In this document: positions 11,913-29,748 of the stretch, piece after piece
Numbering within the stretch: position 1 is the first letter of the stretch
Layout of the letters: each line of letters starts with the position of its first letter
NCBI GenBank assembly: GCA_965233125.1
Contig: CBDDRQ010000030.1
Location: 16,419 to 80,418 of the forward strand
Direction of reading: 5' to 3'
Source: an uncultured bacterium
Lineage (GTDB): Bacteria > Pseudomonadota > Gammaproteobacteria > Burkholderiales > SG8-39
Length of the DNA stretch: 64,000 bases
Notes under the pieces: model-generated
Seen by the model: the letters and a program-made list of their open reading frames with translations, nothing else
Database searches by the model: none
Told to the model about the DNA's origin: nothing
Position numbers and translations under genes: made by a program

Positions 11913-11956
11913 CTCAGAATCCTCTGCGCGAAATAGATCTCGCACGTCTATCGGCT

Positions 11957-15046: not shown

Positions 15047-16836
15047 GCCAGGCCCTCGAAGAATGCCGCGCCGCGTTCGCCGAGTACGGGAACGACGAGC
15101 GCGCGGTCGAGGTAGTCGTTACGCATCTCACAGCTCGTTTCTGCAACCAAGGCGCAGCCGTGGCACGCCGCGCCGTGCAGCCATCGGTGCTCCATGCTCT
15201 TGCCGGGTGTGTGTCGCGCGCAGATGGGGTCGTTGGAGCAAAGTGTGGCTTGCCGCAGCGCCTCCGCCAGGTGGTCCTCGAAGTGACGCGCTTGCTGGAC
15301 GAGGCCTCCAAGCGTTCCTTCGGCGTCAGGACTCCCGGTGTACAGCAGGATCCCGAAATGGTCGGCCTGCGTATCGGCATAAATACGCTCCCGGATCGAG
15401 CTCGCCGGATAGCCGCAGCGCATCGCGAGCGACTGGAGCAAGAGGTGCGAGAGCGTGTGGAGCAGAACGTATGGTCCGCCAGGAAACGCGCGATTGCTCT
15501 TTCGCTCCGTCGCCCAGCGGGCGTGTCCCGTCGCGAGGCCATTGAGTCGTTGCACGACTTCCGGGCGGTCGAGCCAGCTTCGCACAGCGCCGGCGCGCAG
15601 CTGCACGAACACGCCCTCACCCCGATTCTCAACTGCGGGAAACCAGGCTGGCTCAATCGCGAGCGACGCGCGCTCCACGTCGCTCTCATATTCGCCATGG
15701 ATGTCGGGCATTACGGCCTCGAGCCGCGTGAAACCCACTAGCGCGAGCACCTCGCGCAGTCGATGCAGCTGAATAACCGCTTCGACGCCGGCAGTGCGGT
15801 TCGAGCGGCGCCAGGCAGCATCGGGTAAACGTCGAGCGTGAAAATTCGGATCGATGGGTACGTCGTCGCCAAAGCCCTCGGCGGCGGCGATAAGTGCGTC
15901 GAGTTCGACCTGCTTTACCGGTCGGTCCTGCGCGCCACCGCGTTTGCGGTCGCGGACGGCCTGGAGGACTTCGTCGTCGGGAAACGGGGCGAGACGATCC
16001 GCAATTTTTGGTTTCTTTTTGAGAAAAGCCAGCCCTGCGGCGTCATCCACGATCTGGAGGTCGTCCCACAATTCGGCGACCACAGTCCCAACGGCGCTCC
16101 CCCGATCCGGGAGGGAGAGCACGCTTACGACCTGCGGAAAGTAGGCGTTCGACGCCGTGCGGATAAGAAGGCGGCTCGGCTGGATGCAGTCCTCGGAGGT
16201 ATTTCGGCCGAGCCACGGGCGAGCGCCGCGGCAGGTGCCAAGCAAGTTCATCTCAAGCTGAGTTGCCTCGTAGAGACTGCGCTGCTTTCCGCACTCGCAG
16301 CGCACCACGAGATCGGCGAGGTCGCCGCTCGTGCCACGCTCGTCGAGCCAGAGCTGTCTCCGGCAGCCGTCCTCAATCCCGTGAACGTAGCGCTGCCAAT
16401 CGAGGTCGTCCACGTGCCCTCTCGTACACGCGCGGACGAAGCGGGTCGCGACGACGGCGCGGCCATCAAAGCGCCCCCTATCATCCAGCGCCTTACGATG
16501 AACCAGGCGGCGGGAACGCCGGCGATCCTCGGCTCCCGACTCGTCCTGCACTACGAACCACTCGGGGAAGCGCCATGCACCGATGCCCCGCGCCGGCGCG
16601 CGGGGGTCGTTCGACTCCGGAGGAGGCGCATAGAGCCGCGGATTCGGTACTGCCGTCATGATTCCGAGCTTCTGCGACAGCCGCGGCTCCACGATTTCCT
16701 CGAGGTCCGCTGGCTTGGGCCAGGTGTCAAGACCGCCGACAATGGCGGAGTGACGGGGGAGGTCAATCAAAGCACCGGGGCCGTACGTAGTGATGACCTG
16801 GCCGCGCCGGACTTGCCCATGGGCCTTGCGGCTCAT
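15043..16836 (-). CDS. drmB: DISARM DrmB (DUF1998 protein)
   Basis: C-terminal Cys cluster CSNDPICARH...HGAACHGCALVAETSCEMRNDYLDR is typical of DUF1998. Translationally coupled to drmA and drmC (ATGA overlaps). Confidence 0.85.
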   Translation of the reverse strand: MSRKAHGQVRRGQVITTYGPGALIDLPRHSAIVGGLDTWPKPADLEEIVEPRLSQKLGIMTAVPNPRLYAPPPESNDPRAPARGIGAWRFPEWFVVQDESGAEDRRRSRRLVHRKALDDRGRFDGRAVVATRFVRACTRGHVDDLDWQRYVHGIEDGCRRQLWLDERGTSGDLADLVVRCECGKQRSLYEATQLEMNLLGTCRGARPWLGRNTSEDCIQPSRLLIRTASNAYFPQVVSVLSLPDRGSAVGTVVAELWDDLQIVDDAAGLAFLKKKPKIADRLAPFPDDEVLQAVRDRKRGGAQDRPVKQVELDALIAAAEGFGDDVPIDPNFHARRLPDAAWRRSNRTAGVEAVIQLHRLREVLALVGFTRLEAVMPDIHGEYESDVERASLAIEPAWFPAVENRGEGVFVQLRAGAVRSWLDRPEVVQRLNGLATGHARWATERKSNRAFPGGPYVLLHTLSHLLLQSLAMRCGYPASSIRERIYADTQADHFGILLYTGSPDAEGTLGGLVQQARHFEDHLAEALRQATLCSNDPICARHTPGKSMEHRWLHGAACHGCALVAETSCEMRNDYLDRALVVPVLGERGAAFFEGLA

Positions 16837-19800
16837 GCTCGATCCTCTACATCCACTCCGCTTAGATCCTTGAGAAAGAGATTCACCTCCGGCTCGACGT
16901 CACGCAGCGAACGATTCGCCCGGAATTTGCGGTGGTGTTCCGACTCAAACTCCCTGTCGAGCATCTCGCGCAGTAGCGGGCGGGGCTGGTCGAGCTCGTA
17001 CTTCTGGTATTGCACGGCGACTCCCGCGCGTCGATAGTCTTCGAAGACTGTGCGCCATGCATCGAGCAGATCGACGACGCGATTCTGTACGCTGCGTACG
17101 CGCTCCTCGCGCTCCTCGTCGCTTGCGAAGGGCTGCTGTCGCACGCGCTCAAGGAGTGCTTGCAAGACCCGCCGTTCGAGCTCCGTCCGGACGGCGGCGA
17201 TTTGCTCTACACCTCGGGGCGGCGCCAGCTCGGATCGCAGATGCCGCGACAGTCCGACCAGCGCGCCGGCGAAGCCCCGGTCGAGCGCCCGAGCAGAGAA
17301 CGGCGTGACACTCCCGATTTCCACGGAACGATAGAAGGTCTCGTGATAGTGACGGAAGCGCTCGTAATGCGAGCGGTCGCGAGGCTTGTGAATGTTGAAG
17401 AGGGTCACCACCAGCCCAGGGCGTGCGTCGTCGCGGCCCACGCGGCTCGTAGCCTGGATGTACTCCGCATGCGTCTTAGGCTGGCCGAAGACGACCATAA
17501 GCCCGAGCCTCGGAATGTCCAGGCCTACGGAGATCATGTTCGTCGCGATGGCGCAGTCCACCCGCTGATCGATCCTGTGAAATGGTGTCTCCAGCCGCCG
17601 CCTCGCCTCGGCCACTTTGTCGGTCGAGACCCGCGAGGTCAGCTCCACCACCTCGGAGAACGTCCGGCGATCCTGAAAAAGGCCGGGCTTCTCGTCGATG
17701 CGGCGGCGGCTGCCGTAGGCCTTGAGCGTGTTCTGGACCTCTTCTTCCAGGATCCGCCGCGCACCGCCGAGCTCGCGCAGCGCGTTGAAATAGCCGAGCA
17801 CGGTCATGTAAGGGTCCGCGGGATTGGCTTCGTTCTTGTGCCCTCCAAGGTCGCGATAGGCGCGTTCCGCGGCGCCCATCAGTGCGAGCCAGGCCCGCCG
17901 CATTACGACCTTCGGATTGCGCCCCTGCGCAGCGACGCCCAGGTAGAGCCGGGCCGGTATTTCGCCCGGGGGCACCGTATGGGCGAAGAACGAGTCGCGC
18001 CGGTCAGGACCGGGCGGAGGAAAAACCTGCGTGATCCCCCGCGCGAAGAGCGCCTGGATCTGATCCTGCGCGCGCCGCACGGTGGCGGTGGACGCGACGA
18101 TCTTCGGCTTGACCGGGCGCCCATCCAGCTCGCGCACGCACAGCGCCTCGACTGCTGCCTCGTAGAGGCCGACCATCGTGCCCAGCGGGCCGGAGATGAG
18201 GTGCAGTTCGTCCTGGATCACGAGGTCGGGGGGCGGCAGTGGCGCCGTGAGGCGCGTGCCGCGTCCCGGCTCAGCGGCGCCGTAGAACCCGGCGGCGTCG
18301 TAGCGGTCCGCTCCTCCTAGCAGCGCTCCCGACTGTCCAATCCAAGGCAACGACGCAAACTTGTCCACGGTTGCGATGAGGAAGGCCGGCAAGCGCCGAT
18401 AAAGGGGCTCATCGACAGCGACGATCGGTAGCGCCCGGTCACGCGTAAAGTCGCACTCGAAGTTCGCGCATACGATGCGCAGCTCTCGAGGGGTATCGTC
18501 ATTCGGGACGAGCGCGAAGGAATCGCCGCCGAAACGCGTGCCGCACCACGGGCAGTTCTCCAGCGGAATAGGCGACGGCTTGCCTCTCGAGTCCGCCTTG
18601 AACTGTCGCACCTTGGTACGCGCGGAATCGGAACGTCCATCGCCCTTGCGACCCAGGATGTTGGGTGTGGCTGCCTTGCCAACCCACAGACCGATCTCGA
18701 ACGGCCATGTCCCATAGCGCTCGGGATTCCTTTCGCGCTCCAGCTCGAGTGCGCAGACGAGGCCGGCAGCACGTGCGAGCTGATCGAGGGTTAGGAGGCG
18801 CAGCGTGTAGCGCATGATCACGCTCACGCCCGCCGCTGCGCGTCCTTCATCGCCCGGATGACGGAGCCGCCGTAGCACCATCGCAAACGCCGCCAACCCC
18901 AAATACGCCTCGGTCTTGCCGCCGCCCGTCGGGAAGAAGAGGAGATCCACGGTGTCCCGGTCCGGCGCCTGAGGATCGGCGAGGCCGGGCAGGTTCAACA
19001 GCAGGAAGGCCAGCTGGAAAGCGCGCCAGCGCGGCGCGTTAATTCCGAGGCGTTTCTTCAAGGCCCGCGCGACAGCGCGATTCGCGACGCGGAAGGCGTC
19101 GAGCGCGTCAGCGTCCGCGGAGAGCTTGGCGATCCCGCGCTCGATCCGCCCTGCCGCCACGCCGGCCAGGCGCAGCAGTTCTCCCGCCGTATCGCGCCGC
19201 GCCCCCGTGAGGGATGCCAACCCGACCCGCTGCGTCTCCACCCATCTGCGGTAGGCCACGACGAGAGGCTGGAGCCGTGCCGTTACCGCTGCGCCGTCGG
19301 CAAGCGCCCCGAGCGCGTCCATGGACAGCTCAACGTCAGGCACGTCGACCGTGGCCGTCTTCTCTACGTCGGCCTGCGGAACCCAGGCGGTGCGCAGTAG
19401 CCGGCAGGCACCGTCCACAATTTCCCAGTCGGCCGAAACCGCGTGCCCCGTCGCGAATTCCGGGGTGTCCGCATAATGAAGGTCGGCGACCTGCTCGTCC
19501 CATTCGGCTGCCAGTGCCCCGCGCAGATCAGGTCGCGGCACGAATGGATCCTCTCCGCGCACCTCGATCTCCGCCTGGAACACGTATGAGAGGTCCGGGT
19601 TGTCCTCGTTGGGCGTACGGTGGTTGACGAGAAAGATCGAGACCGAGCGCGTGCCAGTAGGGATGCGGTCGGCGAGCTCTTCCGCGACGACCTCGCGCTC
19701 GACCAAGTGAAGCTCGAGCCCATGCGAGTCCGGGACAGTGCACACCGCATCCTCTTGCGATCCGGTGAGCTTAAGCCTTACGGTCGTCTCTCGTGGCGTG

Positions 19801-20240
19801 CGCTGCCAGATCGAGAGCGGCTTACCGTCCTCGCCTGTGATCTCAGTAGGCGCGTAGTCGCCCCAGCGGACGGTCACCATCAGCTCGCGCGCCGCCTTCG
19901 CGACCAAGAAGCTTAGGCCCATCGACGATGGGAAATAGCCCTTCTTCGCTGACTTGCGCTCCTCGCTCGACTCCTCAGCAAGCCCAGCTGTTTCCGGAAC
20001 AACCTCGAAGTCGTCGTCCTCGTCAGCGTCGGCGCTCTTCTCAGCTGGCATGTCCGAGGGAATCAGGAAACCAGTCAGGTACCAGTTCGATGGACGCACC
20101 CAGCCTGGCAACCGCTCCGCCACAAAGGCGTGCCCCGCCCACGGACCGACAAGGTCGAGCCGAAGCGCTTCAATCAATCGCTCGCGGACCTCCAGGGAGG
20201 TGCCGGTTTTCTCGGGATCACCTCGGTTCATGGTCGTCAT
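16833..20240 (-). CDS. drmA: DISARM DrmA (large SF2 helicase)
   Basis: Walker A [14 protein letters not shown], DExH box [14 protein letters not shown], C-terminal lobe [31 protein letters not shown]. 1135 aa. Sits between the methylase and the DUF1998 gene. Confidence 0.85.
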   Translation of the reverse strand: [1135 protein letters not shown]

Positions 20241-23200
20241 AAGAAGAGATCATCTTTGTTGTCGATATCGCGCCTCGCGGATTGCACCGCCTTCTTGCGC
20301 CCTTTCTTTCCCACCGCGGCGCCGGCGCGCGCCTCTGCGCGCGCGCGCTCGGCGTTGAGCTCGAGCAACCGTGCGAGCACCTCAGCCTGCACGTCGTCCG
20401 ACCAACGGTAGCGATACGACACGCCCGGCTCATCTTGTGCGGCGCTACTGGACTCCTCTGCGTAGAAGTCGCTGCGTACCTGCACATCGGCCCAACCGTA
20501 CGCATTGAGCGCGGCTTGGTCGATTGCCGCGTGAAGCCCACGAAGCGCCTGCATCCTGGAGTCTCGCTCATTCGGATCATGGAATCGATTGTATGTTTTG
20601 GTGATTCCCTGGTTCGTGTCGTTCATCAGCTGTGTACGGTACTGGTCGTATGCCTCGCCTGCCGCCATGAGTGCTTCATTCGTTGACCACTCCAGGGGAA
20701 ATGGAAGTGTTTCAAAGCAATCTGACGCTGAATATCGCAGCGTGTCTCCCAGCGACGAAGTCAAGAGACGTGCCCATTCCTCATGCAGGCGGCTCTGTAG
20801 CAGGGCAAAGGCAGCGTAAGAATCGTAGAGAAAAACACAAAGTTCTTTGCTAAAGGTTCGATGCGATGGCTGAAAAGAAACAGCGATGTGCTTCGTTACC
20901 TGAGCCGTCACTAACACTCTGTCCATTCTCTTACGAGCCTCGAGAATTCCATGAGCCTGCCCAGCGAAGAGCCACCACCGCGCCTTTCGAGAACGGGCCG
21001 CTGCGCTATCGTCTCTAAGCCGCATCCTTTCGGGCCGCACTCTCTCTTCTACGATCTTGAGAAGGTCCGGCCACCTTTGCGCTTCCTCTAATGTCATGTC
21101 ACGGAAATTAATGACGTATCTCGACGAGGACTGATGGGGATGCGTATTCACATCGCTACCCCCGATATATGACTCCAGCGCCATGGCGTTCGATGCATCT
21201 GATCGCACAAGCTCGGCGTACTCTTCCTCGTTCACGACGAAACCTGCGCCGTGAGTCGTGACTCCAAATAGTGCAAGGCCAACATTGCTTGCAAGCCGTT
21301 GCGGGTCCACCTCGTCAGTTGCGGGCAAAAGCCTAGAGCTAATACCAGGAACGAGCTTCCCATCCAGTTTGCTGACAGTGGGGATCGCGTGAGCCAGAAG
21401 GTGGATGACGCAGAACGCTACACTTGCGGCCCCGGGCCATCTGGTACTTGTTGTGGCGCTGTAGATCGTGAAATCGCGCTGCAAAAGCCAACGTAGGCCG
21501 GTGGTGCGTGTATCCCCTTGGGCGATAGTTTTAGTGGCCACCAGTCCGAGGGTTCCCCGACCTCTAAGGATGGAGGCCGACCTTCTAAAGAAGTACGCAG
21601 ACAGGTCAGCGTTGCCGTTGGCCCCCTCGTACTGATTCAATAGCCAGTCGCGGTATTGCTCGCCTAATGCAGCCGAGATGCCAATTCCGCCGAGGAATGG
21701 TGGATTGCCCACAATGCAATCGAACCCTCCATTGTCCCGCTGGAACGCCTCGGTGAATTCAATCTCCCAGTGGAACGACGTGAGCGGTGGAGAAGCGTGT
21801 CGGCGATTTTCCAGCCAACTGCGAAAACCCTCGGCATCGCCGCTCATTACGGCGTTCGCGAACTCCAGGCGCTTCGCGTCCCGCTCCTTTAGGTTATCCG
21901 CTTGGAACCAGGCCGCCAACACCAAATCGCCGAGCAGGCGAACCTTGCTCAGCTCGGCTTGGGCCTCGTCCCAAAGGTCTCGCAGCTCCTGATCCGTGAC
22001 GGCCTCGCCCGCCTCCTGAATCCGCTGCCGAAGCGCCGTAACCTTGGCCAAGTGCTCGCGCGCCTTCATTGCCTCTAGGCCTGCCTGAAAGCGCGGAGCG
22101 TCGGCCTCCCAGTGGAACGCTTCGATTTGCCGCCGGGAGAGCCCCACCAACGAGTCGCCGTGACGGAGCGCATGGTCCACGAACGTAAGGGCGTGGTCCC
22201 TGGCCAGCGTCGCTAGCCAGAGCGACATCTTGGCGAGGTCTACGGCCACCGGATTGCGGTCCACGCCGTACAGGCAGCGCTGGACGACAAGCCGCCGGGC
22301 AAAGACGACTTCGTCCTCGTCGAGCGGGATTGCGGGCCGTGCATCGTGCGCTCGCCATGCCTCGACGAGGGCATCAGCCAAGTATCGGCATGCCTCGACG
22401 AGGAACGCGCCCGACCCCATCGCCGGATCGCAGACCTTGAGATCGAGGATTGCCTCCGGTCGCGGCGGCCTGCCGTCATCCTCGCGCAGGCGAGCCAAGA
22501 CCGGATCGAGGGTCGTACGAACGATTGGCTCGGTTAGCTCCCGCGGAGTGTAGTGAGAGCCTGAACGGCGGCGCTCCTCGCTCGGCTGCAGCACCATCGC
22601 GCCTCGAGGCACGAGGTCCGGCGTGGCCGCTTGGTCGATCACGGGCACCAGGGCTGCATGCAGATCCTCGAGCGTGGCCGCCGCCTCGACTGCCTTCTTA
22701 ACGGTGTCGGTGAGCTTGCGGTCGGCGTGGGTCTGTATCCACTTCGCGCGGTTCGCACCGGCTTCGGCGAGCAGCGCCTCGAGGTTCAGCACCGTCGGAG
22801 CGCCCTGCTTCTTTTGCGCTTTGACGGCCACCGAAGGACCTTTGGCGGTCTCCAGGCGGAAGCCCATCATCGTCTCGTAGACCGAGCCGATCTGCTCGAC
22901 ATCTAAAGCGCGGTATGAAATGCGCTCGCCGTCGAGCACAAGCAGCTTCTCGAGGGCGCGGTAGATCGTGCCGTCGGGCACGAGAGGTGGCTCGATCCCA
23001 TCGTGGACGTGGCGCGCGTTGCCAGTCGTGCGCCCTTCGAGGAAGGGAAAGCGATCAGGATCGAACAGTACTCCGTGGCGCGGCGGCAGGTGCATGCCCG
23101 TTGCATCGGCTCCGTCGTGGACCATGCGGAAGAGCGCCACGAGTTGCGCCCAGGCACCGAAGCGCTGATCCATCGTATCGGGGTACAGCGCGGCGTCCTC

Positions 23201-24220
23201 GCGTAGACGCTCATGAAGGCCGGCGAGGGAGTAATAGCGCAGAAAAGTCTCCTGCTCCGGAAGCATGTCTCGCTCCTCGGCGTAGAGCAGGAACACAAGA
23301 CGCAGGATCACGGTGAGTAGCGCGCGATACACCTCGTCGGGGTGCTCGGCGAGGACCTGCCGCAGCAGCTCTCCCTTCGATGCATCATGTGCCATCTGAA
23401 AACCGCGTAGCAGTTCGTAGAGCGCGTGCAGCACCTGCTCGGCGAGTTTTTCCGAGACCTCGTTCTGGAACTTGCGGCTGTCTGCAAGCAGCGCGGCGAG
23501 CCGCTGGTGGCGTGGCCGCGTAAGCAGGCTCTGCTCCGAGAGAAGGAGCCGCAGCGCACTTACGATTGGCCGCCCCGCGGTCTGAACCATGTCGGCCATG
23601 CGGAAGTCGAGCCAGCCCGAGGACTCGCCGCGCGGCGCCGATACGAGGCGGAGCGCACGGCCGTTTACGAGCAACCCGGCAGGCACACCCGTATGGCGCA
23701 GCAGGCGCTCCATGCTGGAGTGCGGCGAGAGGTAGAGTCGTCCGCCGCCACGACTCTCCTCGTCGAACCCCTCACCGGGGACCACGCGCACGAGGAGCTG
23801 CCAGGATGACGCTCCATTCGGGGGCTCGAGCTCTCGCACGGCGTAGTCGGGCCGCAGTGTCCCCCCCGCATCAGGGAGCGGCAGCTCGAGTTCCGAAGGA
23901 ATCGGGCATTCGGGCGTTCCGGCGTAGCCCTTCGGCGAGAAGCGCCAGCCAAGCACCGTGCTGGCGAAGGCACGGAAATCGGTGATGTGCGCATCGGCAT
24001 GCAGGTCGCTGCCGTAACGTGGCGATGGTTCGCGCACACGATTGGCGATGCCTTCGGCGTCGCCGGCGCATGCGAGCAGGCGCCGCTGCCCTTCGGCGTC
24101 GCGCTGGTCGAGGATGGCTCCTGCGCGCACCAGAGCAGGAGCCGAGACTACGAGGCCTGTGGGTCGGACGAAGCCGAGCCACTCGAGGTGAGAAAGGATC
24201 TGTGGGTCGAGCTTCGCCAC
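20237..24220 (-). CDS. drmMI: DISARM DrmMI (N6-adenine DNA methyltransferase, Eco57I/type IIG-like)
   Basis: SAM motif I VCDPAMGSGAFLVEA and catalytic motif IV IVGNPPFLGG. 1327 aa. GTG start 3 nt after the drmD stop. Confidence 0.85.
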   Translation of the reverse strand: MAKLDPQILSHLEWLGFVRPTGLVVSAPALVRAGAILDQRDAEGQRRLLACAGDAEGIANRVREPSPRYGSDLHADAHITDFRAFASTVLGWRFSPKGYAGTPECPIPSELELPLPDAGGTLRPDYAVRELEPPNGASSWQLLVRVVPGEGFDEESRGGGRLYLSPHSSMERLLRHTGVPAGLLVNGRALRLVSAPRGESSGWLDFRMADMVQTAGRPIVSALRLLLSEQSLLTRPRHQRLAALLADSRKFQNEVSEKLAEQVLHALYELLRGFQMAHDASKGELLRQVLAEHPDEVYRALLTVILRLVFLLYAEERDMLPEQETFLRYYSLAGLHERLREDAALYPDTMDQRFGAWAQLVALFRMVHDGADATGMHLPPRHGVLFDPDRFPFLEGRTTGNARHVHDGIEPPLVPDGTIYRALEKLLVLDGERISYRALDVEQIGSVYETMMGFRLETAKGPSVAVKAQKKQGAPTVLNLEALLAEAGANRAKWIQTHADRKLTDTVKKAVEAAATLEDLHAALVPVIDQAATPDLVPRGAMVLQPSEERRRSGSHYTPRELTEPIVRTTLDPVLARLREDDGRPPRPEAILDLKVCDPAMGSGAFLVEACRYLADALVEAWRAHDARPAIPLDEDEVVFARRLVVQRCLYGVDRNPVAVDLAKMSLWLATLARDHALTFVDHALRHGDSLVGLSRRQIEAFHWEADAPRFQAGLEAMKAREHLAKVTALRQRIQEAGEAVTDQELRDLWDEAQAELSKVRLLGDLVLAAWFQADNLKERDAKRLEFANAVMSGDAEGFRSWLENRRHASPPLTSFHWEIEFTEAFQRDNGGFDCIVGNPPFLGGIGISAALGEQYRDWLLNQYEGANGNADLSAYFFRRSASILRGRGTLGLVATKTIAQGDTRTTGLRWLLQRDFTIYSATTSTRWPGAASVAFCVIHLLAHAIPTVSKLDGKLVPGISSRLLPATDEVDPQRLASNVGLALFGVTTHGAGFVVNEEEYAELVRSDASNAMALESYIGGSDVNTHPHQSSSRYVINFRDMTLEEAQRWPDLLKIVEERVRPERMRLRDDSAAARSRKARWWLFAGQAHGILEARKRMDRVLVTAQVTKHIAVSFQPSHRTFSKELCVFLYDSYAAFALLQSRLHEEWARLLTSSLGDTLRYSASDCFETLPFPLEWSTNEALMAAGEAYDQYRTQLMNDTNQGITKTYNRFHDPNERDSRMQALRGLHAAIDQAALNAYGWADVQVRSDFYAEESSSAAQDEPGVSYRYRWSDDVQAEVLARLLELNAERARAEARAGAAVGKKGRKKAVQSARRDIDNKDDLFL

Positions 24221-24223
24221 GGC

Positions 24224-27200
24224 TCAGTTGCTCTCCGGCCAGAGGTAGACGAGGCCTACCGGCTCGATGCGCCGCGCCTTCACCTCGTAGAAGCTGCGAA
24301 GGCGGGCGGGCTCGTCAGCGAGGTCGCGGTCGAACTGCGCGAGGCGGCCCCTCCACGATCGCACGTCAGCTTCGAGCTGGCGCTTCTCTTCCTCGTCAAA
24401 GCCGAGGGTCAGCTGACGAAAGTCCTGCTTCTCGTACTTTTCCAGCTGCTCGCGGACTCGCTCTCGTTGACGCTCGAGCGTCTCGCGCAGCTCACGCGCT
24501 TCCCGTTCGCCGCGTTCCCCTAGCTTCTGCACTGCCGCGTCCGCCCATTCGGCGGCGCGCGGCTCGAGACTCGGCAGCAGGTCCGCGATATCGCGTGCAG
24601 CCGTTGCCAGTAGTTTCCGCTGAACGACTTCACTAGGAGCGCGGCCACCCGTCTCACTCAGCGAGCGCTCCAGCATTTCAAGCGTCTTCGCTTCAGCCTC
24701 GCGCGCGTACGCCTCGAGCGCTCCCTTGCGCTGGCCAGGCTCGATCCAGCGGGCCGTGACCGGGACGAGTTCCTCGTGCAGCCGCTCCGCGCCGCGGCCA
24801 TACAGCGAGAGTCGTCCGAGCAGGATCACGCGCGGAATCGCGTCCCGAGTCTGCGCGAGACAGGCGCGCGATAGATCCAGGTGGACGAAGCCTTGGGCTC
24901 TGAAGCGCGCGAGCAGGCGCTGGGCAACGCGCTGCTCCAGATGGAGGTGCACGGTATCCTCGGTGAGGATTCCCGCGTCCTCGAAAACGACGGGCCGAAT
25001 CGGCGCCTCTCGACGCCATTCGGCGAGCTTCTGATTGCTCGCGCGTGGTGTACGTAGGGTATCCAGCGTGGCTGCCCAGCTCGGATCGGCGCCGGCGCGT
25101 CGGTCGAGCGACGGAAAGGCATACGCAGGACGCCCGTACACATCTGTCGTCTCAGCGAGCGGCGGGGCGCCGAGAAGCTCGAGCGAGCACGAGAGTGCGT
25201 CGCGGAATGACGCCGGGTCGAAGCCGGTCGCGGAGCGCGATTTGTCGAGTAGGTTACGGCAGCGCTCGATCTGGGCCTCAAGTTCGGCTCGACGTTCACT
25301 GTTTGCCTCGAGTTCCTCCTCGACAACGCGCTTACGCGCAGCGTCGAGGTCGGCGGCTTCGATCTCGTTAGCGAGGCGCTCCGCGTCCCGGTGGCGGATG
25401 CCCTGACCGAGCCGGCGCTCGATGTCGTCGTCGATCACCTTCGAGAGACTGCCCAGCTCTCTCTTAATCGTTTCGGTCTTGCGGATGAGCACTTCGAGAA
25501 CCCGGTCCTCGGTGCGCTGAGGCAACACGAAGTAGTGGCAGCGCACTTCGGGCGCTGGCTGGAGTTTTCGGTCGATGCGGCCGTTGCGCTGCTCGATGCG
25601 CCCTGGGTTCCAGGGAAGATCGAAGTGGAAGAGGTCCGCGCAGTGCGCCTGGAAGTTGAGTCCCTCGCGCGCGGCGTCCGTCGCGAGCAGGATGCGCAAT
25701 GGGTCTTTGCTTGGGTCAGTGTTGAAGCGGCGCTGAATCTCCTTGCGGCGCGTACTGCTGGTCAGGCCATCTATCACCTCTATGCGCTCCTCCGCGCGTT
25801 CAGTGCCCTCGATCGCCTGCTCGAGGATCTGCTTGAGGTGGCGCTTGGTGCCCTCACGATTCTCCGTGAATATGAGGACCCGGCGGTGCAGCCATGCCGG
25901 GGGCTTGCCTTGCGGGCGCTGCCCAAACGGCGGCAGGCCGGGACACAGATGCTCGCGTATCCAGTCGAGGAGGTACCGCGTCTTAGCGTCTGGCAGATGC
26001 CGATTCCGCTCGGCGATTTCCTGCATCCGGTCGAGCAGCACTTTCTCGCGATGCCACAGAGCCTCTGACGTGGAATCGCGCGCCGACCCGGACTCGGCCG
26101 CGCTGGTGATCGCCTCGATTTCCGTCGTCTCCTCGGCCTCGACTTCTTCTAATGACCACGAGGCGCGCTCGTCATCCGCGTCTGGCGCATGTGTGAAGAG
26201 CGCCGCCGATTCAGCACCGGCCTCGGTCGCCGCGGCCGGTCCGCCCTTCTCCCAATGCCGCTCGACCGTCGCGCGGTGGACCTTCAGGCTGCGCGCGAAG
26301 GCTTCAATGGAGGAGAGAAGCCGCTGCTGGAGTCCGACCACGAGCAGACCCGCTGTCGCCTGCGCGCGCTTCGACGTCTTGGCAAAGCGCTCTTCACGTG
26401 CACTGCGGTACTCGTCGAGGAGGCGGGAGAGGGCAAGCTCCGGGGCGTCGGCGGCGAGGCCGTCGATCGGAATGCGGACGATGTGCCGCCGCGGGAAGCC
26501 GCCTTGAACGGCGCGGATGTCTTCCTTGAGGCGCCGCACCATGATTTCCTCGAGGGCCTTCGGCCGTAGTTTCACCCCGCGCGTGAATCGATAGGGATCT
26601 AGGATCTCCATCAGCGTCGAGAAGCTGTTCGAGTGTCCGTTGTGGGGCGTTGCGGACAGGAACAAACGGTGCTCGAAGCGGCCGGCCAGGTCGTGGATCG
26701 CGCGGGTAAATTTGGTCTCGATGCCATAGCGACCGCCGCTGGCCGGCGCCGCATGATGCGCTTCGTCCAGGATGAGCAGACTCCCTGGCAGCAGCGTGCC
26801 CAGCCACTCGCGCAACGGATCGGCGTACGCAGGGTCGATCAGCAGGTTGTGCGAGACCAGGAACCGGCTGTGCGTGCGCCAGGGGTTTATGCCGAACCCG
26901 CGCTCCCGCCGCATCCGCGCGACATACGCGCGATCCAAGATTTCGAACACGAGACCGAAGCGCTCTTCGAGCTCGGCTTTCCACTGCTCAAGCACCGACG
27001 CCGGAGTGGCGACGACTATCGTCTTCGCCTTGCGCCGCAGCAGTAATTCCCGCGCGATGAGACCCGCCTCGATCGTCTTGCCGAGGCCTGTATCGTCGGC
27101 GATAAATAACGCGACGCGCGGCAACCGCAGCGCTTTCCGCAATGGCTCCATCTGATAAGCGTCGATCTTGATTCCCGCACGGAACGGCGACTGGAAGAGG

Positions 27201-27526
27201 TTGGGGTCGGTCGCCGTAACGCAGTTCCAGCGGAGCGTGTGCAGGAAAGCCGCGAACCGACGAGGCGGGTCGAATCCCTTCGTGGCTAGGTCCTTCCAGC
27301 CTTCTTCCTCCACGATGCGACGATCAAGCTCGTACTCCCAGAACACGTCGAGGGCCCGGCCCTGGGCGTCGTCGTCCGCGCAAGCAAGTCGAACGAGCGA
27401 AGATTGGCCCGGCGCGCTCGGCTCCACAACCTCCTCCACAAGCCATCGGCGGGAGCGCAAATGAACCAGCTCCCCGATGCGCGGTGGACGGCTAGGCAAT
27501 GGACCTCTTGCGGGTACCGCGCTCAT
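24224..27526 (-). CDS. drmD: DISARM DrmD (SNF2-family helicase)
   Basis: IADDTGLGKTIEAG, LILDEAHHAAP, DLPWNPGRIEQRNGRIDR. 1100 aa. First gene of the class 1 order. Confidence 0.85.
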   Translation of the reverse strand: MSAVPARGPLPSRPPRIGELVHLRSRRWLVEEVVEPSAPGQSSLVRLACADDDAQGRALDVFWEYELDRRIVEEEGWKDLATKGFDPPRRFAAFLHTLRWNCVTATDPNLFQSPFRAGIKIDAYQMEPLRKALRLPRVALFIADDTGLGKTIEAGLIARELLLRRKAKTIVVATPASVLEQWKAELEERFGLVFEILDRAYVARMRRERGFGINPWRTHSRFLVSHNLLIDPAYADPLREWLGTLLPGSLLILDEAHHAAPASGGRYGIETKFTRAIHDLAGRFEHRLFLSATPHNGHSNSFSTLMEILDPYRFTRGVKLRPKALEEIMVRRLKEDIRAVQGGFPRRHIVRIPIDGLAADAPELALSRLLDEYRSAREERFAKTSKRAQATAGLLVVGLQQRLLSSIEAFARSLKVHRATVERHWEKGGPAAATEAGAESAALFTHAPDADDERASWSLEEVEAEETTEIEAITSAAESGSARDSTSEALWHREKVLLDRMQEIAERNRHLPDAKTRYLLDWIREHLCPGLPPFGQRPQGKPPAWLHRRVLIFTENREGTKRHLKQILEQAIEGTERAEERIEVIDGLTSSTRRKEIQRRFNTDPSKDPLRILLATDAAREGLNFQAHCADLFHFDLPWNPGRIEQRNGRIDRKLQPAPEVRCHYFVLPQRTEDRVLEVLIRKTETIKRELGSLSKVIDDDIERRLGQGIRHRDAERLANEIEAADLDAARKRVVEEELEANSERRAELEAQIERCRNLLDKSRSATGFDPASFRDALSCSLELLGAPPLAETTDVYGRPAYAFPSLDRRAGADPSWAATLDTLRTPRASNQKLAEWRREAPIRPVVFEDAGILTEDTVHLHLEQRVAQRLLARFRAQGFVHLDLSRACLAQTRDAIPRVILLGRLSLYGRGAERLHEELVPVTARWIEPGQRKGALEAYAREAEAKTLEMLERSLSETGGRAPSEVVQRKLLATAARDIADLLPSLEPRAAEWADAAVQKLGERGEREARELRETLERQRERVREQLEKYEKQDFRQLTLGFDEEEKRQLEADVRSWRGRLAQFDRDLADEPARLRSFYEVKARRIEPVGLVYLWPESN

Positions 27527-27590: not shown

Positions 27591-29459
27591 TCAAAGCTGA
27601 GGCCGGATGCTGTTCAGGTATTCGTGCTTCGTCAGCCCGAAATGATGCAGCAAGGACCTGAAGACGCCAACGCTAACAGGATCTCGCCGCGGAAGCGGAA
27701 AGCCGCGTCCATCTGTCCCTTGCCAGAATTCATGGCTACCCTTACCGCGTGCTGGAATGTGTTGATAACCGAAATGTCGTAGTACACGCTGAGCTTCAGC
27801 GCGCGATGGCGCTGAAAAAAACGCATCGGCCAATAGGCTCCTTCCGACCACCCACGTTGGGATGTATCGGTCCAACAGCTCGAAAGGGAGCGGTCCCTGG
27901 AGGCTACCCTCCAATGGAAGCGGCCGTCCCTTTACCTCTCCAGCCGGATTTCCAGTCGCGATTTGCCGTGCCAAGGTCCTCCACGTAAGCAAATCGCGGC
28001 CTTGTCTCCAGGCGGCGTAACCCTTAGGCGAAAAGTCGAGCCAACTCGCGACGATCTCCAGTACCTGCTGAAAACCTTGGTCGTCCTTAAGTAGACCGTG
28101 TACACCGCCGAAGTGCTCTCCTTGGCCTCTCAACCACTCGAAGGCAACGTAGTTAGCAAGAGCCTCCTCGAGGCACGCGTCACTGAGTTGAAAGGTCTTG
28201 TAAACCCCCTCGTGGTAGTTGCGGTAGCGGCCCCGAAGCACCTGAAGCTCGACATAAGTCGAGCATGCCTCTGCGCGGGCATGAAAGAGTTCATGACGCA
28301 GAACTAGCCCGAGCGAGACATGTACTCCCAGATGCAGCGGCCTGTAACTAAGGTGGCCCAAGTCTGAGGCGAATCCGCATGCCAGATCCAAAAGCCGATC
28401 AGCATGCAGGTATATCCCCCAGCTCGAGTCGTCGTAGCTGTGGAACGACTGATACCAGCCCACCGCCTCGAAGCCATCGGCCTTGACCACGCTTTTAGCG
28501 CGTCTGCCTCGTTCTTCCAGCTCATCGCGCGGCAACTCGATTTGCAGGTCTTCGAGTTGATTTCGCAGGGAGTCATGATCAAGAGCGCCGGTTTCCGGTG
28601 CAGTTGGCTGCAATGTGCCGGAACGATCCGGCGGCGTAACGCCAGCCAATCGTGGCCGGGCGAAAGCGCGCGGCACGGCGCGCTCTGCTGCAGCCTTGAG
28701 CTCTGACACAGTAGGTAAAGGACCGCGAGGTGTCCACGTGACAAGAGCGACCGACTTGTCCTGATCGCTCCGGAGGCGAAAGAGGTTATAGTTGCCGTCG
28801 CCGGCGGGTTGTATGGCGCTTGCTTCGAGCGCCTTTCTCAACGCCGTCTCGGGCGCTCGCTTCCTGGATTCCACCCATAAAGCGGGCGGAAAGCAGCCCT
28901 TGAGTTCTCGAGCGACAGGCGTGTTCGGAGCACGCTTGCCGTAGATAGGCTGCGTTTTCCCCATGATCTCCCGGACCGATTGCGGCGACGATTCGATCTG
29001 CCGCTTTTCAGCCGCGCGCTCCTCTTCCCATGATTTGTAGCGCTCCTCATACGCCTGCCAGATCTCGGCAGCCTTCTTGAGGGCACTAAGACAATCAGAA
29101 CCCAATATCCCCCTGCGTTGCTGCTCGCTGATAAGCAAGCACAACTTCTGCGAGTCCGGCAGCTCGTAGGCGCCATGCAGGAATATGTACGAAGCATTGC
29201 CCGGAATGCCGCCTAAGAGGCCCGAGGCGAGAGCGCGATAGATGGCAGCATCGAGCTCCCCTCCCAAGGCCGTAATCATCTTTGCATGCTCTTTGAGAGC
29301 GGGCGCCGTATGCCGGAGGCCCTGCGGCATGACCTGGATGTGTTGGTGAGTCGCGAGGAATTGAACTACGTGCAAGGCATCGAAAGAGACTCGGCAGGCC
29401 ACCATGCCGCCAAGGTCTGCCTCGCTGAACGCAGGCGTTATCCAGGACCGCTTTTCCAT
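27591..29459 (-). CDS. 622-aa protein with an HExxH (putative metallopeptidase-like) motif and a C-terminal HicA-like domain
   Basis: VLRHELFHARAE, followed about 45 residues later by CLEEALANYV. The last ~70 aa, AEAQRVLRHFGYQHIPARGKGSHEFWQGTDGRGFPLPRRDPVSVGVFRSLLHHFGLTKHEY, match the HicA toxin pattern including GSH. Confidence 0.65.
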   Translation of the reverse strand: MEKRSWITPAFSEADLGGMVACRVSFDALHVVQFLATHQHIQVMPQGLRHTAPALKEHAKMITALGGELDAAIYRALASGLLGGIPGNASYIFLHGAYELPDSQKLCLLISEQQRRGILGSDCLSALKKAAEIWQAYEERYKSWEEERAAEKRQIESSPQSVREIMGKTQPIYGKRAPNTPVARELKGCFPPALWVESRKRAPETALRKALEASAIQPAGDGNYNLFRLRSDQDKSVALVTWTPRGPLPTVSELKAAAERAVPRAFARPRLAGVTPPDRSGTLQPTAPETGALDHDSLRNQLEDLQIELPRDELEERGRRAKSVVKADGFEAVGWYQSFHSYDDSSWGIYLHADRLLDLACGFASDLGHLSYRPLHLGVHVSLGLVLRHELFHARAEACSTYVELQVLRGRYRNYHEGVYKTFQLSDACLEEALANYVAFEWLRGQGEHFGGVHGLLKDDQGFQQVLEIVASWLDFSPKGYAAWRQGRDLLTWRTLARQIATGNPAGEVKGRPLPLEGSLQGPLPFELLDRYIPTWVVGRSLLADAFFSAPSRAEAQRVLRHFGYQHIPARGKGSHEFWQGTDGRGFPLPRRDPVSVGVFRSLLHHFGLTKHEYLNSIRPQL

Positions 29460-29475: not shown

Positions 29476-29748
29476 CTAGTTCTTCCGGATCCGACCGTAG
29501 GCGTGCCCTACGGTTACGACCGTGCCGTCCTGCGCCACCACAGCATAGGAATCGAACAACTCGTGGAAGCGGCGCAGCAGGATGTCCCCTTTTTCGCGCC
29601 GGATACGCTTTCGGCTCTCTTTGTCGAAGAACCTGATGCGTGCTCCATGGTGGTCATGGACGGTAGCCCCGTACTGTAGCAACAGCTCGACGATGAGCGG
29701 GGGAACGCCGCGCTGCTGCATACGGACTCGAGCGTGATCGGAATACAT
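29476..29748 (-). CDS. DUF4258-like small protein (90 aa)
   Basis: MYSDHARVRMQQRGVPPLIVELLL... matches the HA..R..eRgI opening of DUF4258 proteins. Only 10 nt downstream of the preceding gene. Confidence 0.55.
   Translation of the reverse strand: MYSDHARVRMQQRGVPPLIVELLLQYGATVHDHHGARIRFFDKESRKRIRREKGDILLRRFHELFDSYAVVAQDGTVVTVGHAYGRIRKN

What the first reader, a model, noticed from the sequence alone, without database searches (positions are those of the whole stretch)
27591..29459. 622-aa protein fusing an HExxH module to a C-terminal HicA domain
HicA toxins are normally proteins of about 60-70 aa paired with a HicB antitoxin. Here a convincing HicA-like sequence (…GKGSHEFW…FPLPRRDPVSVGVFRSLLHHFGL…) forms the last ~70 residues of a 622-aa protein. 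That protein also contains HELFH plus a downstream EEALANY, which is metallopeptidase-like, and no hicB-like gene is adjacent. This suggests a protease-regulated or self-inhibited RNase effector.
Basis: partly seen in the sequence, partly recalled or inferred. Interest (0 to 1): 0.6.

Follow-up and report, generated by a model that had tools for sequence, protein, structure and literature searches.

The report
HicA toxin fusion riding defence operons
This 622-residue protein joins a real HicA RNA-cutting toxin domain to a conserved, apparently new metal-site (HExxH) domain. Its relatives are repeatedly built into large anti-phage operons (BREX type 3, DISARM, Zorya), so it is probably an undescribed back-up suicide module rather than an ordinary toxin-antitoxin gene.

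Summary
ORF 27591-29459 (-) encodes 622 aa with HELFH (389-393), EEALAN (431-436) and a C-terminal HicA domain (550-622, GKGSH 572-576).

- **HicA:** confirmed by family-level Pfam hits, a profile hit to the solved HicA 1whz, and a fold match (TM 0.73).
- **HExxH...ExxAN site:** almost invariant in 64 distinct homologues. The domain is confidently modelled (pLDDT 89) yet matches no peptidase profile and no solved fold, so "metallopeptidase" is motif-level only.
the gene sits 64 bp upstream of a complete class 1 DISARM operon. Of 56 distinct homologous loci with at least 1 kb of flank, 27 have the gene inside BREX type 3 operons (BrxC-gene-PglXI, gaps of a few bp). Others follow ZorD, adjoin type I R-M or PDC-M27 cassettes, or follow DrmC.
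- **Short form:** a ~380-aa version (HExxH core plus HicA, probably Gerdes' "Class 13") lies beside drmD in three mycobacterial-type loci.
- **Distribution:** no viral copies, and absent from 25 related genomes.

Best reading (confidence 0.5): a self-contained, cis-controlled HicA RNase that serves as a back-up or guard effector of helicase-methylase defence systems. It is a new variant of a known kind.

The parts
27591..29459 (-). Whole gene: 622-aa HExxH-HicA fusion protein (stop codon included)
   Evidence: ORF list. 151 homologous cluster representatives at E<=1e-30. AlphaFold model with mean pLDDT 84, pTM 0.75.
28560..29459 (-). N-terminal extension, aa 1-300: alpha/beta modules plus a long helical hairpin. 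It is absent from the ~380-aa short forms and is followed by a low-confidence linker at aa 281-290.
   Evidence: Secondary structure and pLDDT. No PDB or BFVD fold match. Short forms P0152 and P0154 lack it. Lowest conservation of the three regions, 0.53-0.54.
27825..28547 (-). Conserved HExxH domain, aa 305-545, mostly helical with a small beta-sheet. It has no detectable relative among solved structures.
   Evidence: Domain model pLDDT 89, pTM 0.89. Foldseek against PDB gives all E>2 and TM<0.25. hhalign against M78 gives probability 1%.
28410..28457 (-). WYQSFH...WGIY strands (aa 335-350) preceding the HExxH helix. Candidate substrate-binding edge strands.
   Evidence: W335 63/64, Q337 63/64, H340 64/64, W347-G348-I349 64/64. 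Predicted strands 334-337 and 348-352.
28281..28295 (-). HELFH motif (aa 389-393) in the middle of helix 374-407
   Evidence: H389 64/64, E390 61/64, F392 62/64, H393 64/64. Coordinates verified.
28152..28169 (-). EEALAN motif (aa 431-436) at the start of helix 430-444. Candidate third-ligand 'glutamate helix' of ExxA[DN] type.
   Evidence: E431 63/63, E432 61/63, L434 63/63, A435 63/63, N436 60/63. Geometry could not be measured.
27594..27812 (-). C-terminal HicA (dsRBD-like) RNase domain, aa 550-622
   Evidence: PF07927 hit in 15 of 18 members. Profile against 1whz E 1.4e-5. Foldseek 1whz TM 0.73, rmsd 2.2. Phage HicA-like hits in BFVD.
27732..27746 (-). GKGSH motif (aa 572-576) holding the putative catalytic His576
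   Evidence: G572 53/57, K573 54/57, G574 56/58, H576 56/59. H576 aligns with the His of KGGH in 1whz.
24224..27526 (-). drmD (SNF2 helicase), first gene of the class 1 DISARM operon. It starts 64 bp after the stop of the fusion gene.
   Evidence: NF038317 DISARM_DrmD 1034 bits. PADLOC DrmD 1022 bits. Gap read.
20237..24220 (-). drmMI (N6-adenine methyltransferase)
   Evidence: PADLOC DrmMI 1270 bits. Eco57I and MmeI domains.
16833..20240 (-). drmA (helicase)
   Evidence: PADLOC DrmA 914 bits
15043..16836 (-). drmB (DUF1998/MZB)
   Evidence: PADLOC DrmB 270 bits. PF09369.
14264..15046 (-). drmC (PLD nuclease)
   Evidence: PADLOC DrmC 255 bits. PLDc_2.

Best explanation
The gene encodes a self-contained, three-part defence effector:
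- a variable N-terminal extension (aa 1-300), possibly an adaptor or sensor;
- a conserved HExxH...ExxAN metal-site domain (aa 305-545) that acts as the control module;
- a C-terminal HicA endoribonuclease (aa 550-622) that is the toxic output.

The proposed mechanism is as follows. In uninfected cells the RNase is held inactive in cis, with no separate HicB needed. When infection or failure of the neighbouring DNA-targeting system is sensed, the HExxH domain unleashes HicA, by proteolytic release or by a conformational switch. RNA cleavage then arrests the cell or the phage, as an abortive or back-up defence. The module is portable. It is co-transcribed with, and probably guards or backs up, large helicase-plus-methylase defence systems: class 1 DISARM in this window, BREX type 3 most often elsewhere, and also Zorya I, type I R-M and PDC-M27.

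Shown:
- the domain identities at the stated levels;
- conservation of the two active-site-like motifs;
- the operonic embedding;
- the patchy, island-borne, non-viral distribution.

Inferred:
- RNase toxicity;
- cis-inhibition;
- metal binding or proteolysis;
- the trigger;
- any physical link to DISARM or BREX proteins.
For: 1. Genuine HicA with the catalytic-type His conserved in 56 of 59 sequences. HicA-domain systems have been shown to defend against phage (PMC13092281) and were predicted to be defensive (PMC10865869).
2. No HicB partner in the window. In the BREX loci the flanking genes are BrxC and PglXI with gaps of a few bp, so control must be in cis or by the host system.
3. HExxH, E404 and EEALAN are nearly invariant across 64 sequences and also in the distant short forms (HECFH/HEAFH, EEAIAN/EEAIAC). 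That fits a catalytic or metal site better than a passive antitoxin surface.
4. The minimal conserved unit is the HExxH core plus HicA (short forms of 363-437 aa). One member that lost HicA also has HQLFH (P0017/L009).
5. Context. The window has gene, 64 bp, then drmD-drmMI-drmA-drmB-drmC.
   - 27 of 56 distinct loci are embedded in BREX type 3 on the same strand, in at least 3 deep lineages of the tree.
   - ZorABCD-gene is seen in L046 and L038.
   - DrmC-gene is seen in L071. Type I R-M and PDC-M27 neighbours are seen in L043 and L056.
   - A type IIG methylase plus SNF2 helicase precede the gene in Pseudoroseomonas cervicalis ATCC 49957 (L014).
   - Short forms lie next to DrmD/DrmMI homologues in 3 of 3 mycobacterial-type loci.
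   - All remaining neighbours pooled hit other defence families.
6. No copy in 2.9 million viral contigs. Absent from 25 related genomes. The region has lower GC than its flanks.
7. Embedded back-up RNases (HEPN, PIN, Schlafen) in BREX loci are a described pattern (PMC12839542).
Against:
- The peptidase or metal-site role rests on motifs only. There is no profile hit and no fold match to any zincin.
- The window protein sits on a long branch. Its nearest relatives (L001, L003) lie beside ParB/RepB and serine-recombinase genes rather than inside a defence operon.
- About 40% of loci with flanks show no BREX, DISARM, Zorya or R-M gene within three genes, so a specific partner is not obligatory.
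- Many BREX-embedded copies come from closely related Burkholderiales, which inflates the count.
- No promoter or terminator could be assigned around the gene, so co-transcription with drmD is inferred only from the 64-bp gap and the shared strand.
Confidence: 0.5

Rival explanations
1. Ordinary fused toxin-antitoxin or addiction module. The HExxH domain is simply a large cis-antitoxin (Gerdes' 'large HicB'). The protein stabilises the mobile island or acts as a stand-alone one-gene defence in the style of CapRel. Its position next to DISARM or BREX only reflects defence-island clustering.
For: - Short forms match the published Class 13 description: 340-440 aa, helical N-terminal part plus HicA.
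- Neighbours are very diverse.
- The closest relatives of the window protein sit beside ParB/RepB and recombinase genes of mobile elements.
- TA genes are known to cluster in defence islands (PMC10865869).
Against: - Gaps of 1-5 bp and about 15 bp inside the BrxC-gene-PglXI operon occur in 27 distinct loci and in several deep lineages.
- The gene repeatedly sits next to drmD in two very distant forms of the family.
- BREX type 3 is rare, about 919 taxa (PMC12839542), so 48% co-occurrence is far above chance.
- An invariant HExxH...E site is not needed for a passive antitoxin.
Confidence: 0.22
2. The metalloprotease is the effector, and the HicA fold is a non-toxic RNA- or nucleic-acid-binding (dsRBD) targeting or sensor module. 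The enzyme would cleave a host or phage protein on infection, as the Lit protease cleaves EF-Tu. Alternatively it would cleave a repressor or a component of the neighbouring system, as ImmA/IrrE/CapP-type regulators do.
For: - The HExxH domain is the most strictly conserved catalytic-looking site.
- HicA has a dsRBD-like fold (PMC10865869).
- Metallopeptidase regulators attached to defence operons are known, for example CapP/CapH (bioRxiv 10.1101/2022.04.27.489752, listed).
- A few members keep the HExxH domain with a different or missing C-terminus (P0112, P0121, P0017).
Against: - The GxGxH motif with the catalytic-type His is kept in 56 of 59 sequences, which argues for an active RNase.
- No HTH repressor partner is conserved next to the gene.
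- No similarity to M78 was found.
- No peptidase fold support was found.
Confidence: 0.15
3. Expression regulator of the host operon. The HicA RNase trims the polycistronic BREX or DISARM mRNA, or the methylase message. This would balance methylation against restriction and prevent autoimmunity. It would not act as a suicide effector.
For: - The gene has a fixed position immediately before the methyltransferase gene PglXI, with a gap of about 15 bp in most BREX-3 loci.
- In the window it sits before drmD-drmMI.
- Methylation-based systems need tight stoichiometry (general knowledge).
Against: - The same gene also follows ZorD in Zorya, which has no methylase.
- It follows DrmC at the end of a DISARM operon (L071).
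- It occurs away from any such operon.
- Nothing in the protein suggests sequence-specific RNA recognition.
Confidence: 0.08

Closest known systems
Gerdes 2024 'Class 13' fused HicBA (mBio 15:e03293-23, PMC10865869; example WP_067334119.1)
   Same: - A single polypeptide with a predominantly alpha-helical N-terminal region and a canonical C-terminal HicA domain, with no separate HicB.
- The ~380-aa short forms found here (for example WP_064985054.1, WP_085092624.1, WP_163661320.1 from Mycolicibacterium) fit its size range and annotation.
- These short forms are homologous to aa 312-609 of the window protein.
   Different: - Identity with Class 13 could not be verified, because the paper's sheet 13 is truncated in the held copy.
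- The paper does not report an HExxH site, a BREX, DISARM or Zorya context, or a 600-650-aa long form. The terms peptidase, HExxH, BREX and DISARM have 0 occurrences in it.
- The window protein has an extra ~300-aa N-terminal extension.
PrrC anticodon nuclease embedded in the EcoprrI type Ic restriction-modification operon (from my own knowledge, not checked here)
   Same: A latent RNase gene lies inside a restriction-modification-type operon. It is thought to be silenced by the R-M complex and unleashed when a phage inhibits that complex. A regulatory N-terminal domain controls a C-terminal RNase.
   Different: - PrrC has an ABC-ATPase regulatory domain and a different nuclease fold.
- No physical or functional coupling of the HExxH-HicA protein to DISARM or BREX has been shown.
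Back-up endoRNase effectors (HEPN, PIN, Schlafen) embedded in BREX and BREX-related loci (NAR 2026, PMC12839542)
   Same: RNase genes lie inside or immediately next to core BREX genes and are interpreted as suicidal back-up effectors. The position inside type 3 BREX operons is analogous.
   Different: - HicA is not among the effectors listed there, with 0 occurrences.
- The control domain here is an HExxH module, not an MNT, kinase or wHTH.
- The same gene also serves DISARM, Zorya and type I R-M loci.
Canonical HicAB type II toxin-antitoxin
   Same: The HicA fold and the G-x-H catalytic-type motif are shared.
   Different: - There is no HicB.
- HicA forms only the last 12% of a 622-aa protein.
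- The gene is embedded in defence operons, not in a two-gene cassette.
Gluzincin metallopeptidases (HExxH plus a Glu on a later helix, ExxA[DN]-type), including ImmA/IrrE (M78) and the Lit (U49) abortive-infection protease
   Same: - HExxH lies on a long helix.
- A conserved E-E-A-L-A-N lies 38 residues later at a helix start.
- Short strands precede the HExxH helix.
- The defence context is shared with Lit, ImmA and CapP. That resemblance is from my own knowledge.
   Different: - No profile match and no fold match was found.
- hhalign against M78 gives probability 1%.
- Lit and other zincin families were not tested individually.
CapRel(SJ46) fused toxin-antitoxin (as summarised in PMC10865869)
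   Same: A one-polypeptide toxin plus a cis-inhibitory sensor domain that is relieved by a phage trigger.
   Different: The toxin (a tRNA pyrophosphokinase) and the sensor are both different. CapRel is stand-alone rather than embedded in an operon.

Membership tests
HicA toxin (PF07927) | dsRBD-like alpha-beta-beta-beta-alpha fold | tested here: met
   The AlphaFold model predicts H553-562, E566-568, E576-580, E586-590 and H597-606. Foldseek against 1whz gives TM 0.73, rmsd 2.2 A, probability 1.00.
HicA toxin (PF07927) | Profile match above the curated threshold | tested here: inconclusive
   The window protein scores 20.5 bits against a cut-off of 27. However, 15 of 18 homologues match, best E 4.2e-7. 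The short form P0152 scores 40 bits. The family profile hits 1whz at E 1.4e-5.
HicA toxin (PF07927) | Conserved catalytic-type histidine in the G-x-H motif of strand 1 | tested here: met
   GKGSH at 572-576. H576 is kept in 56 of 59 sequences and aligns with the His of 1whz. That this His is catalytic is from my own knowledge of HicA studies.
HicA toxin (PF07927) | Adjacent HicB antitoxin gene (two-gene cassette) | tested here: not met
   No HicB hit in the neighbouring ORFs. In BREX loci the flanking genes are BrxC and PglXI.
HicA toxin (PF07927) | mRNA interferase activity and toxicity | not testable with these tools
   Needs expression and RNA cleavage assays.
Zincin/gluzincin metallopeptidase (clan MA) | HExxH on an alpha-helix, conserved in homologues | tested here: met
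   HELFH lies within helix 374-407. H389 64/64, E390 61/64, H393 64/64.
Zincin/gluzincin metallopeptidase (clan MA) | Third ligand Glu on a downstream helix, positioned at the metal site | tested here: inconclusive
   EEALAN at the start of helix 430-444 is nearly invariant.
Zincin/gluzincin metallopeptidase (clan MA) | Zincin fold detectable against solved peptidases | tested here: not met
Zincin/gluzincin metallopeptidase (clan MA) | Match to any curated peptidase profile | tested here: not met
   No match in Pfam for all 18 members at E<=1, in NCBIfam, in PADLOC or among PDB sequences at E<=10.
ImmA/IrrE peptidase M78 (PF06114) | Profile-profile similarity beyond the HExxH motif | tested here: not met
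   hhalign of 73 domain rows against 7 M78 sequences gave probability 1.1% over 12 aligned columns. The M78 alignment is small, so power is limited.
Class 1 DISARM (drmD, drmMI, drmA, drmB, drmC) | The five core genes are present in order next to the gene | tested here: met
   NCBIfam DrmD scores 1034 bits. PADLOC scores are DrmD 1022, DrmMI 1270, DrmA 914, DrmB 270 and DrmC 255 bits.
Class 1 DISARM (drmD, drmMI, drmA, drmB, drmC) | The 622-aa protein is itself a recognised DISARM component | tested here: not met
   No DISARM model in PADLOC or NCBIfam matches it. It is an unlisted neighbour.
Class 1 DISARM (drmD, drmMI, drmA, drmB, drmC) | Recurrent linkage of the family to DISARM genes elsewhere | tested here: met
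   L071 has DrmC-gene. L024 has DrmD 5.5 kb upstream. Short forms lie next to DrmD/DrmMI homologues in L087, L088 and L089. The sample is small, and no census of all DISARM loci was made.
BREX type 3 accessory gene | Located inside a BrxF-BrxC-PglXI-BrxH-PglZ-BrxA operon | tested here: not met
   This is not the case in this window, which has DISARM instead. It is met for 27 of 56 distinct homologous loci.

The most novel reading that the evidence does not exclude
The HExxH domain is a previously unrecognised zincin-like protease fold that works as a guard switch. It monitors the integrity of SNF2-helicase/methylase defence complexes (DISARM class 1, BREX type 3, Zorya ZorD, type I R-M). When a phage anti-restriction factor disables them, it cuts loose or activates the HicA RNase. 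That would make it a PrrC-like 'guard' principle generalised across several unrelated defence systems by one portable gene.
Probability: 0.2. Interest if true: 0.8.

Novelty: new variant of a known kind. Interest (0 to 1): 0.62.

Why it matters
How BREX, DISARM and Zorya actually stop phages is still poorly understood, and so is what happens when phages inhibit them. This one gene family is wired into the operons of several of these systems, and it has an unambiguous toxin output (HicA) plus an unexplored, strongly conserved metal-site domain. That makes it a tractable handle for three things:
- testing the 'back-up or guard effector' idea experimentally;
- adding HicA to the list of RNases recruited by BREX-type systems;
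- defining a candidate new catalytic domain.

It also shows that RefSeq's label 'type II toxin-antitoxin system HicA family toxin' hides a defence-operon component. Cultured carriers exist for experiments: Pseudoroseomonas cervicalis ATCC 49957, Limnohabitans sp. Jir72, Extensimonas perlucida HX2-24 and Mycolicibacterium species.

Tried and rejected
1. **ImmA/IrrE (M78) membership, suggested by HExxH...E-x-x-A-N.** hhalign gave probability 1%. Rejected as far as a 7-sequence profile can tell.
3. **C-terminal effector swapping.** P0112 has a different 95-aa tail that looked RelE/ParE-like by eye. Pfam and PDB sequence searches gave nothing, so this is unsupported. P0061's long tail looks like a frameshift artefact.
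4. **The N-terminal extension as a fused copy of the conserved 351-aa gene downstream of the mycobacterial short forms.** hhalign gave probability 0.1% and blastp found nothing. Rejected.
5. **The 'five-gene cassette' idea** (ECF sigma, anti-sigma-like, ARPP-1, DUF4258, fusion gene). Only ARPP-1 recurs, in 3 loci. The others are not conserved neighbours.
6. **Phage or plasmid origin.** There are 0 relatives in viral contigs. Plasmids hold only a truncated mycobacterial remnant.
7. **SNF2 helicase as the single common partner.** This is attractive (BrxH, DrmD, ZorD, PDC-M27C, HmaA-type). It is not universal, though, as type I R-M loci and the 'other' loci show.
8. **Promoter and terminator scan.** Nothing usable was found.
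10. **Centring a genome search on Mycobacteriaceae.** Not possible, because those genomes are not held.
11. **Verifying the Class 13 accession.** Not possible, because the supplement is truncated.
Full report
**1.

The minus-strand ORF 27591-29459 encodes 622 aa. It starts at an ATG preceded by a purine-rich ribosome-binding stretch. HELFH is at residues 389-393, EEALAN(Y) at 431-437 and GKGSH at 572-576; all coordinates were verified by translation.

For this protein alone, Pfam finds only a sub-threshold HicA_toxin match (E 5e-4, 20.5 bits against a cut-off of 27; residues 555-609). NCBIfam and PADLOC find nothing. At family level the HicA call is solid:
- 15 of 18 first-round homologues hit PF07927, best 4.2e-7.
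- The family profile hits the solved Thermus HicA 1whz at E 1.4e-5, with the GKGSH histidine aligned to its KGGH histidine.
- The C-terminus of a confident AlphaFold model (mean pLDDT 84, pTM 0.75) superposes on 1whz with TM 0.73, rmsd 2.2 A, 31% identity and probability 1.00.
- In the viral structure library the only real matches are small phage HicA-like proteins.

**2. The HExxH region is conserved, confidently folded, and not recognisably a peptidase**

I enlarged the family through an exhaustive profile search, which gave 151 representatives at E<=1e-30, most of them 600-650 aa and full length. I also ran genome and metagenome scans. In 64 distinct sequences the conservation is as follows:

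| Residue | Conserved in |
|---|---|
| H389 | 64/64 |
| E390 | 61/64 |
| H393 | 64/64 |
| E404 | 63/64 |
| Y415 | 62/64 |
| E431 | 63/63 |
| E432 | 61/63 |
| A435 | 63/63 |
| N436 | 60/63 |
| H340, W347-G348-I349 | 64/64 |

The arrangement resembles the gluzincin signature at motif level: HExxH on a long helix (374-407), two short strands before it, and E-x-x-A-N at the start of a helix 38 residues later. That resemblance rests on my own knowledge of thermolysin-, neprilysin- and M78-type 'ExxA[DN]' helices.

Every test beyond motifs was negative:
- No peptidase profile in Pfam for any of 18 members at E<=1, nor in NCBIfam or PADLOC.
- No PDB sequence hit at E<=10.
- No Foldseek match for the whole model.
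- No Foldseek match for a very confident domain-only model of residues 305-545 (pLDDT 89, pTM 0.89). All hits had E>2 and TM<0.25.
- A profile-profile comparison with seven ImmA/IrrE (M78) sequences from related genomes aligned only 12 columns around HExxH, at probability 1%.

I could not read model coordinates, so ligand geometry is untested. My reading is that a catalytic or metal-binding site is likely (about 60-65%). 'Metallopeptidase' is a hypothesis, and the fold may be new.

**3. Architecture**

Short relatives of 363-437 aa contain only the HExxH core plus HicA (P0152, P0154). The short form is much the larger group: 322 clusters at E<=1e-5, mostly Actinomycetota, named 'type II toxin-antitoxin system HicA family toxin' in RefSeq. 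Examples are WP_064985054.1, WP_085092624.1 and WP_163661320.1. Residues 312-609 of the window protein align directly with them.

So the conserved unit is the HExxH core plus HicA. The first ~300 residues of the long form are an added and less conserved extension with no detectable relatives.

One member that lost HicA also carries HQLFH (P0017). A few copies are split by frameshifts (L022, L025, L059).

**4. Context in the window**

The gene lies 64 bp upstream of, and on the same strand as, a complete class 1 DISARM operon:

| Gene | Coordinates | Evidence |
|---|---|---|
| drmD | 24224-27526 | NCBIfam DISARM_DrmD, 1034 bits |
| drmMI | 20237-24220 | PADLOC, 1270 bits |
| drmA | 16833-20240 | PADLOC, 914 bits |
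| drmB | 15043-16836 | PADLOC, 270 bits |
| drmC | 14264-15046 | PADLOC, 255 bits |

Upstream on the same strand are a 90-aa weak DUF4258-like ORF (stop 16 bp before the ATG), an ARPP-1 gene, a 445-aa protein and an ECF sigma factor. The region has lower GC than the window's ends. The gene is absent from 15 same-genus and 10 same-order genomes, and no relative exists in 2.9 million viral contigs. It is cargo of a horizontally acquired cellular defence island.

**5. Context elsewhere is the main new result**

I called ORFs in all fetched loci, clustered them, and labelled neighbours by BLAST to PADLOC-verified references. There are 63 distinct versions of the gene at 95% identity, and 56 have at least 1 kb of flank.

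In 27 of these 56 (48%) the gene is inside a BREX type 3 operon on the same strand, in the order BrxF-BrxC-[gene]-PglXI-BrxH(SNF2)-PglZ-BrxA. Typically 1-5 bp or an overlap separates it from BrxC, and about 15 bp separates it from PglXI. It is part of the transcription unit. In three of these loci a PD-T7-3 homologue is also inserted between BrxC and the gene.

Type 3 BREX is rare, about 919 taxa in the latest survey (PMC12839542), so this co-occurrence cannot be chance. In the family tree the BREX-embedded state appears in at least three deep lineages. Many counts, however, come from closely related Burkholderiales.

Other hosts:
- Type I Zorya, with the gene right after ZorD (L046, L038) or separated from it by a four-gene insertion (L012). 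L024 shares that four-gene block but carries a DrmD-type helicase upstream instead.
- DISARM, with the gene after DrmC (L071).
- A type I R-M operon headed by the gene (L056).
- Type I R-M, then the gene, then PDC-M27ABC (L043).
- A type IIG methylase plus an SNF2/HKD helicase, then the gene, in the cultured Pseudoroseomonas cervicalis ATCC 49957 (L014).

Neighbours in the remaining loci, pooled, hit Hma, AriA, DruE, ShosA, HEC-01 and other defence families.

In all three short-form loci of the mycobacterial type that I could inspect, the gene lies directly beside, and divergent from, homologues of the window's DrmD (40% identity) and DrmMI (31-32% over about 1,190 aa). These are M. mageritense, M. 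alvei and one metagenome. Other short forms sit by a Dpd cluster, a JAB/ThiF-AAA module or an IS element.

Adjacency to drmD therefore recurs in two very distant branches of the superfamily. That makes the window's arrangement unlikely to be accidental.

**6. Mechanism**

The best-supported reading (confidence 0.5) is a portable, self-contained effector. HicA is the toxic RNase output. The HExxH domain is the cis-acting control element, acting by proteolytic release or as a metal-dependent switch. The N-terminal extension is an adaptor or sensor. The module is recruited as a back-up or guard layer by large DNA-targeting helicase/methylase systems.

This parallels the described HEPN, PIN and Schlafen back-up RNases of BREX loci (PMC12839542). 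From my own knowledge, it also parallels PrrC inside the EcoprrI R-M operon. HicA-domain systems have experimental support as anti-phage defences (PMC13092281).

The steps that are shown are the domain identities, the conservation, the operonic embedding and the distribution. Everything about activity, trigger and coupling is inferred.

The rivals are:
- an ordinary fused toxin-antitoxin that merely clusters with defence genes (0.22);
- a protease effector with HicA as a nucleic-acid-binding module (0.15);
- an RNase that tunes operon expression (0.08).

**7. Comparison with the literature and novelty**

Gerdes' survey of 14 HicA contexts contains no peptidase, HExxH, BREX or DISARM mention. 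Its 'Class 13' (340-440 aa, helical N-terminal part plus HicA) is probably the short form found here. I could not verify this, because the relevant sheet is truncated in the held copy.

The 2026 BREX survey does not mention HicA. A further literature search found no paper linking HicA fusions to DISARM, BREX or Zorya operons.

I therefore rate this a new variant of a known kind: a known toxin domain and a known 'embedded back-up effector' logic, combined with an undescribed control domain, an undescribed long form, and an undescribed systematic association with BREX type 3, DISARM class 1 and Zorya I.

**8. Limits**

- No coordinates were available for geometry.
- The DISARM sample is small.
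- ORF calling in the loci was a simple longest-ORF heuristic.
- The BREX count is partly phylogenetically redundant.

Noticed in passing
window 29476-29748 (-): A 90-aa ORF (MYSDHARVRMQQRG...) ends 16 bp before the fusion gene's ATG. It has only a weak DUF4258 match (E 0.017). It is not a conserved neighbour of the family in other loci.
   Followed up: partly
window 29759-30784 (-); L008 14241-16109; L041 (368-aa ORF): An ARPP-1 domain protein (PF20208, E 4e-88 in the window) lies within a few kb of the fusion gene in three divergent loci: the window, L008 and L041. This is a possible second recurrent partner in the non-Burkholderiales lineages.
   Followed up: partly
L017 8550-9953; L025; L049: A PD-T7-3 homologue (PADLOC E 8e-36) is inserted between BrxC and the fusion gene in three BREX type 3 loci. 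The brxC-pglXI junction therefore behaves as a hotspot for accessory defence genes.
   Followed up: partly
window 8983-14053 (+); L071 13334-20354; L043 11697-18705: A PDC-M27/Azaca-like cassette (unknown protein, PLD, SNF2-type helicase) accompanies the fusion gene in the window and in L071, both of which also carry DISARM, and in L043. DISARM, PDC-M27 and the fusion gene may travel together.
   Followed up: partly
L017 and L018 (Candidatus Rubrivivax defluviihabitans, two contigs): One genome carries two separate BREX type 3 loci, each with its own copy of the fusion gene.
   Followed up: no
L003, L005, L006, L007, L027: An SbcCD-like pair (Metallophos plus AAA_23, about 1170 aa; HEC-01-like in PADLOC) recurs next to or near the fusion gene. 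In L007 it is inserted within the BREX locus.
   Followed up: partly
L087 9159-10214; L089 9115-10173: The mycobacterial short forms are followed by a conserved ~351-aa gene (83% identical between the two loci) of unknown function. A Gabija-like OLD/AAA_15 plus UvrD pair follows in L088 and L089. This gene is unrelated to the long form's N-terminal extension.
   Followed up: partly
L009 10001-11767 (P0017): This is a family member with HQLFH instead of HExxH and no HicA domain, located just upstream of BrxF-BrxC-PglXI. It looks like coupled decay of both functional sites.
   Followed up: no
P0112 (675 aa), P0121 (615 aa): Two members replace HicA with unrelated C-terminal tails of 58-95 aa that have no Pfam or PDB sequence match. 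This may be effector swapping or an assembly artefact.
   Followed up: partly
L001 and L003, genes downstream of the fusion gene: The window protein's closest relatives lie convergent to a RepB / ParB-RepB / large serine recombinase trio. This suggests carriage at the edge of an integrative mobile element.
   Followed up: no
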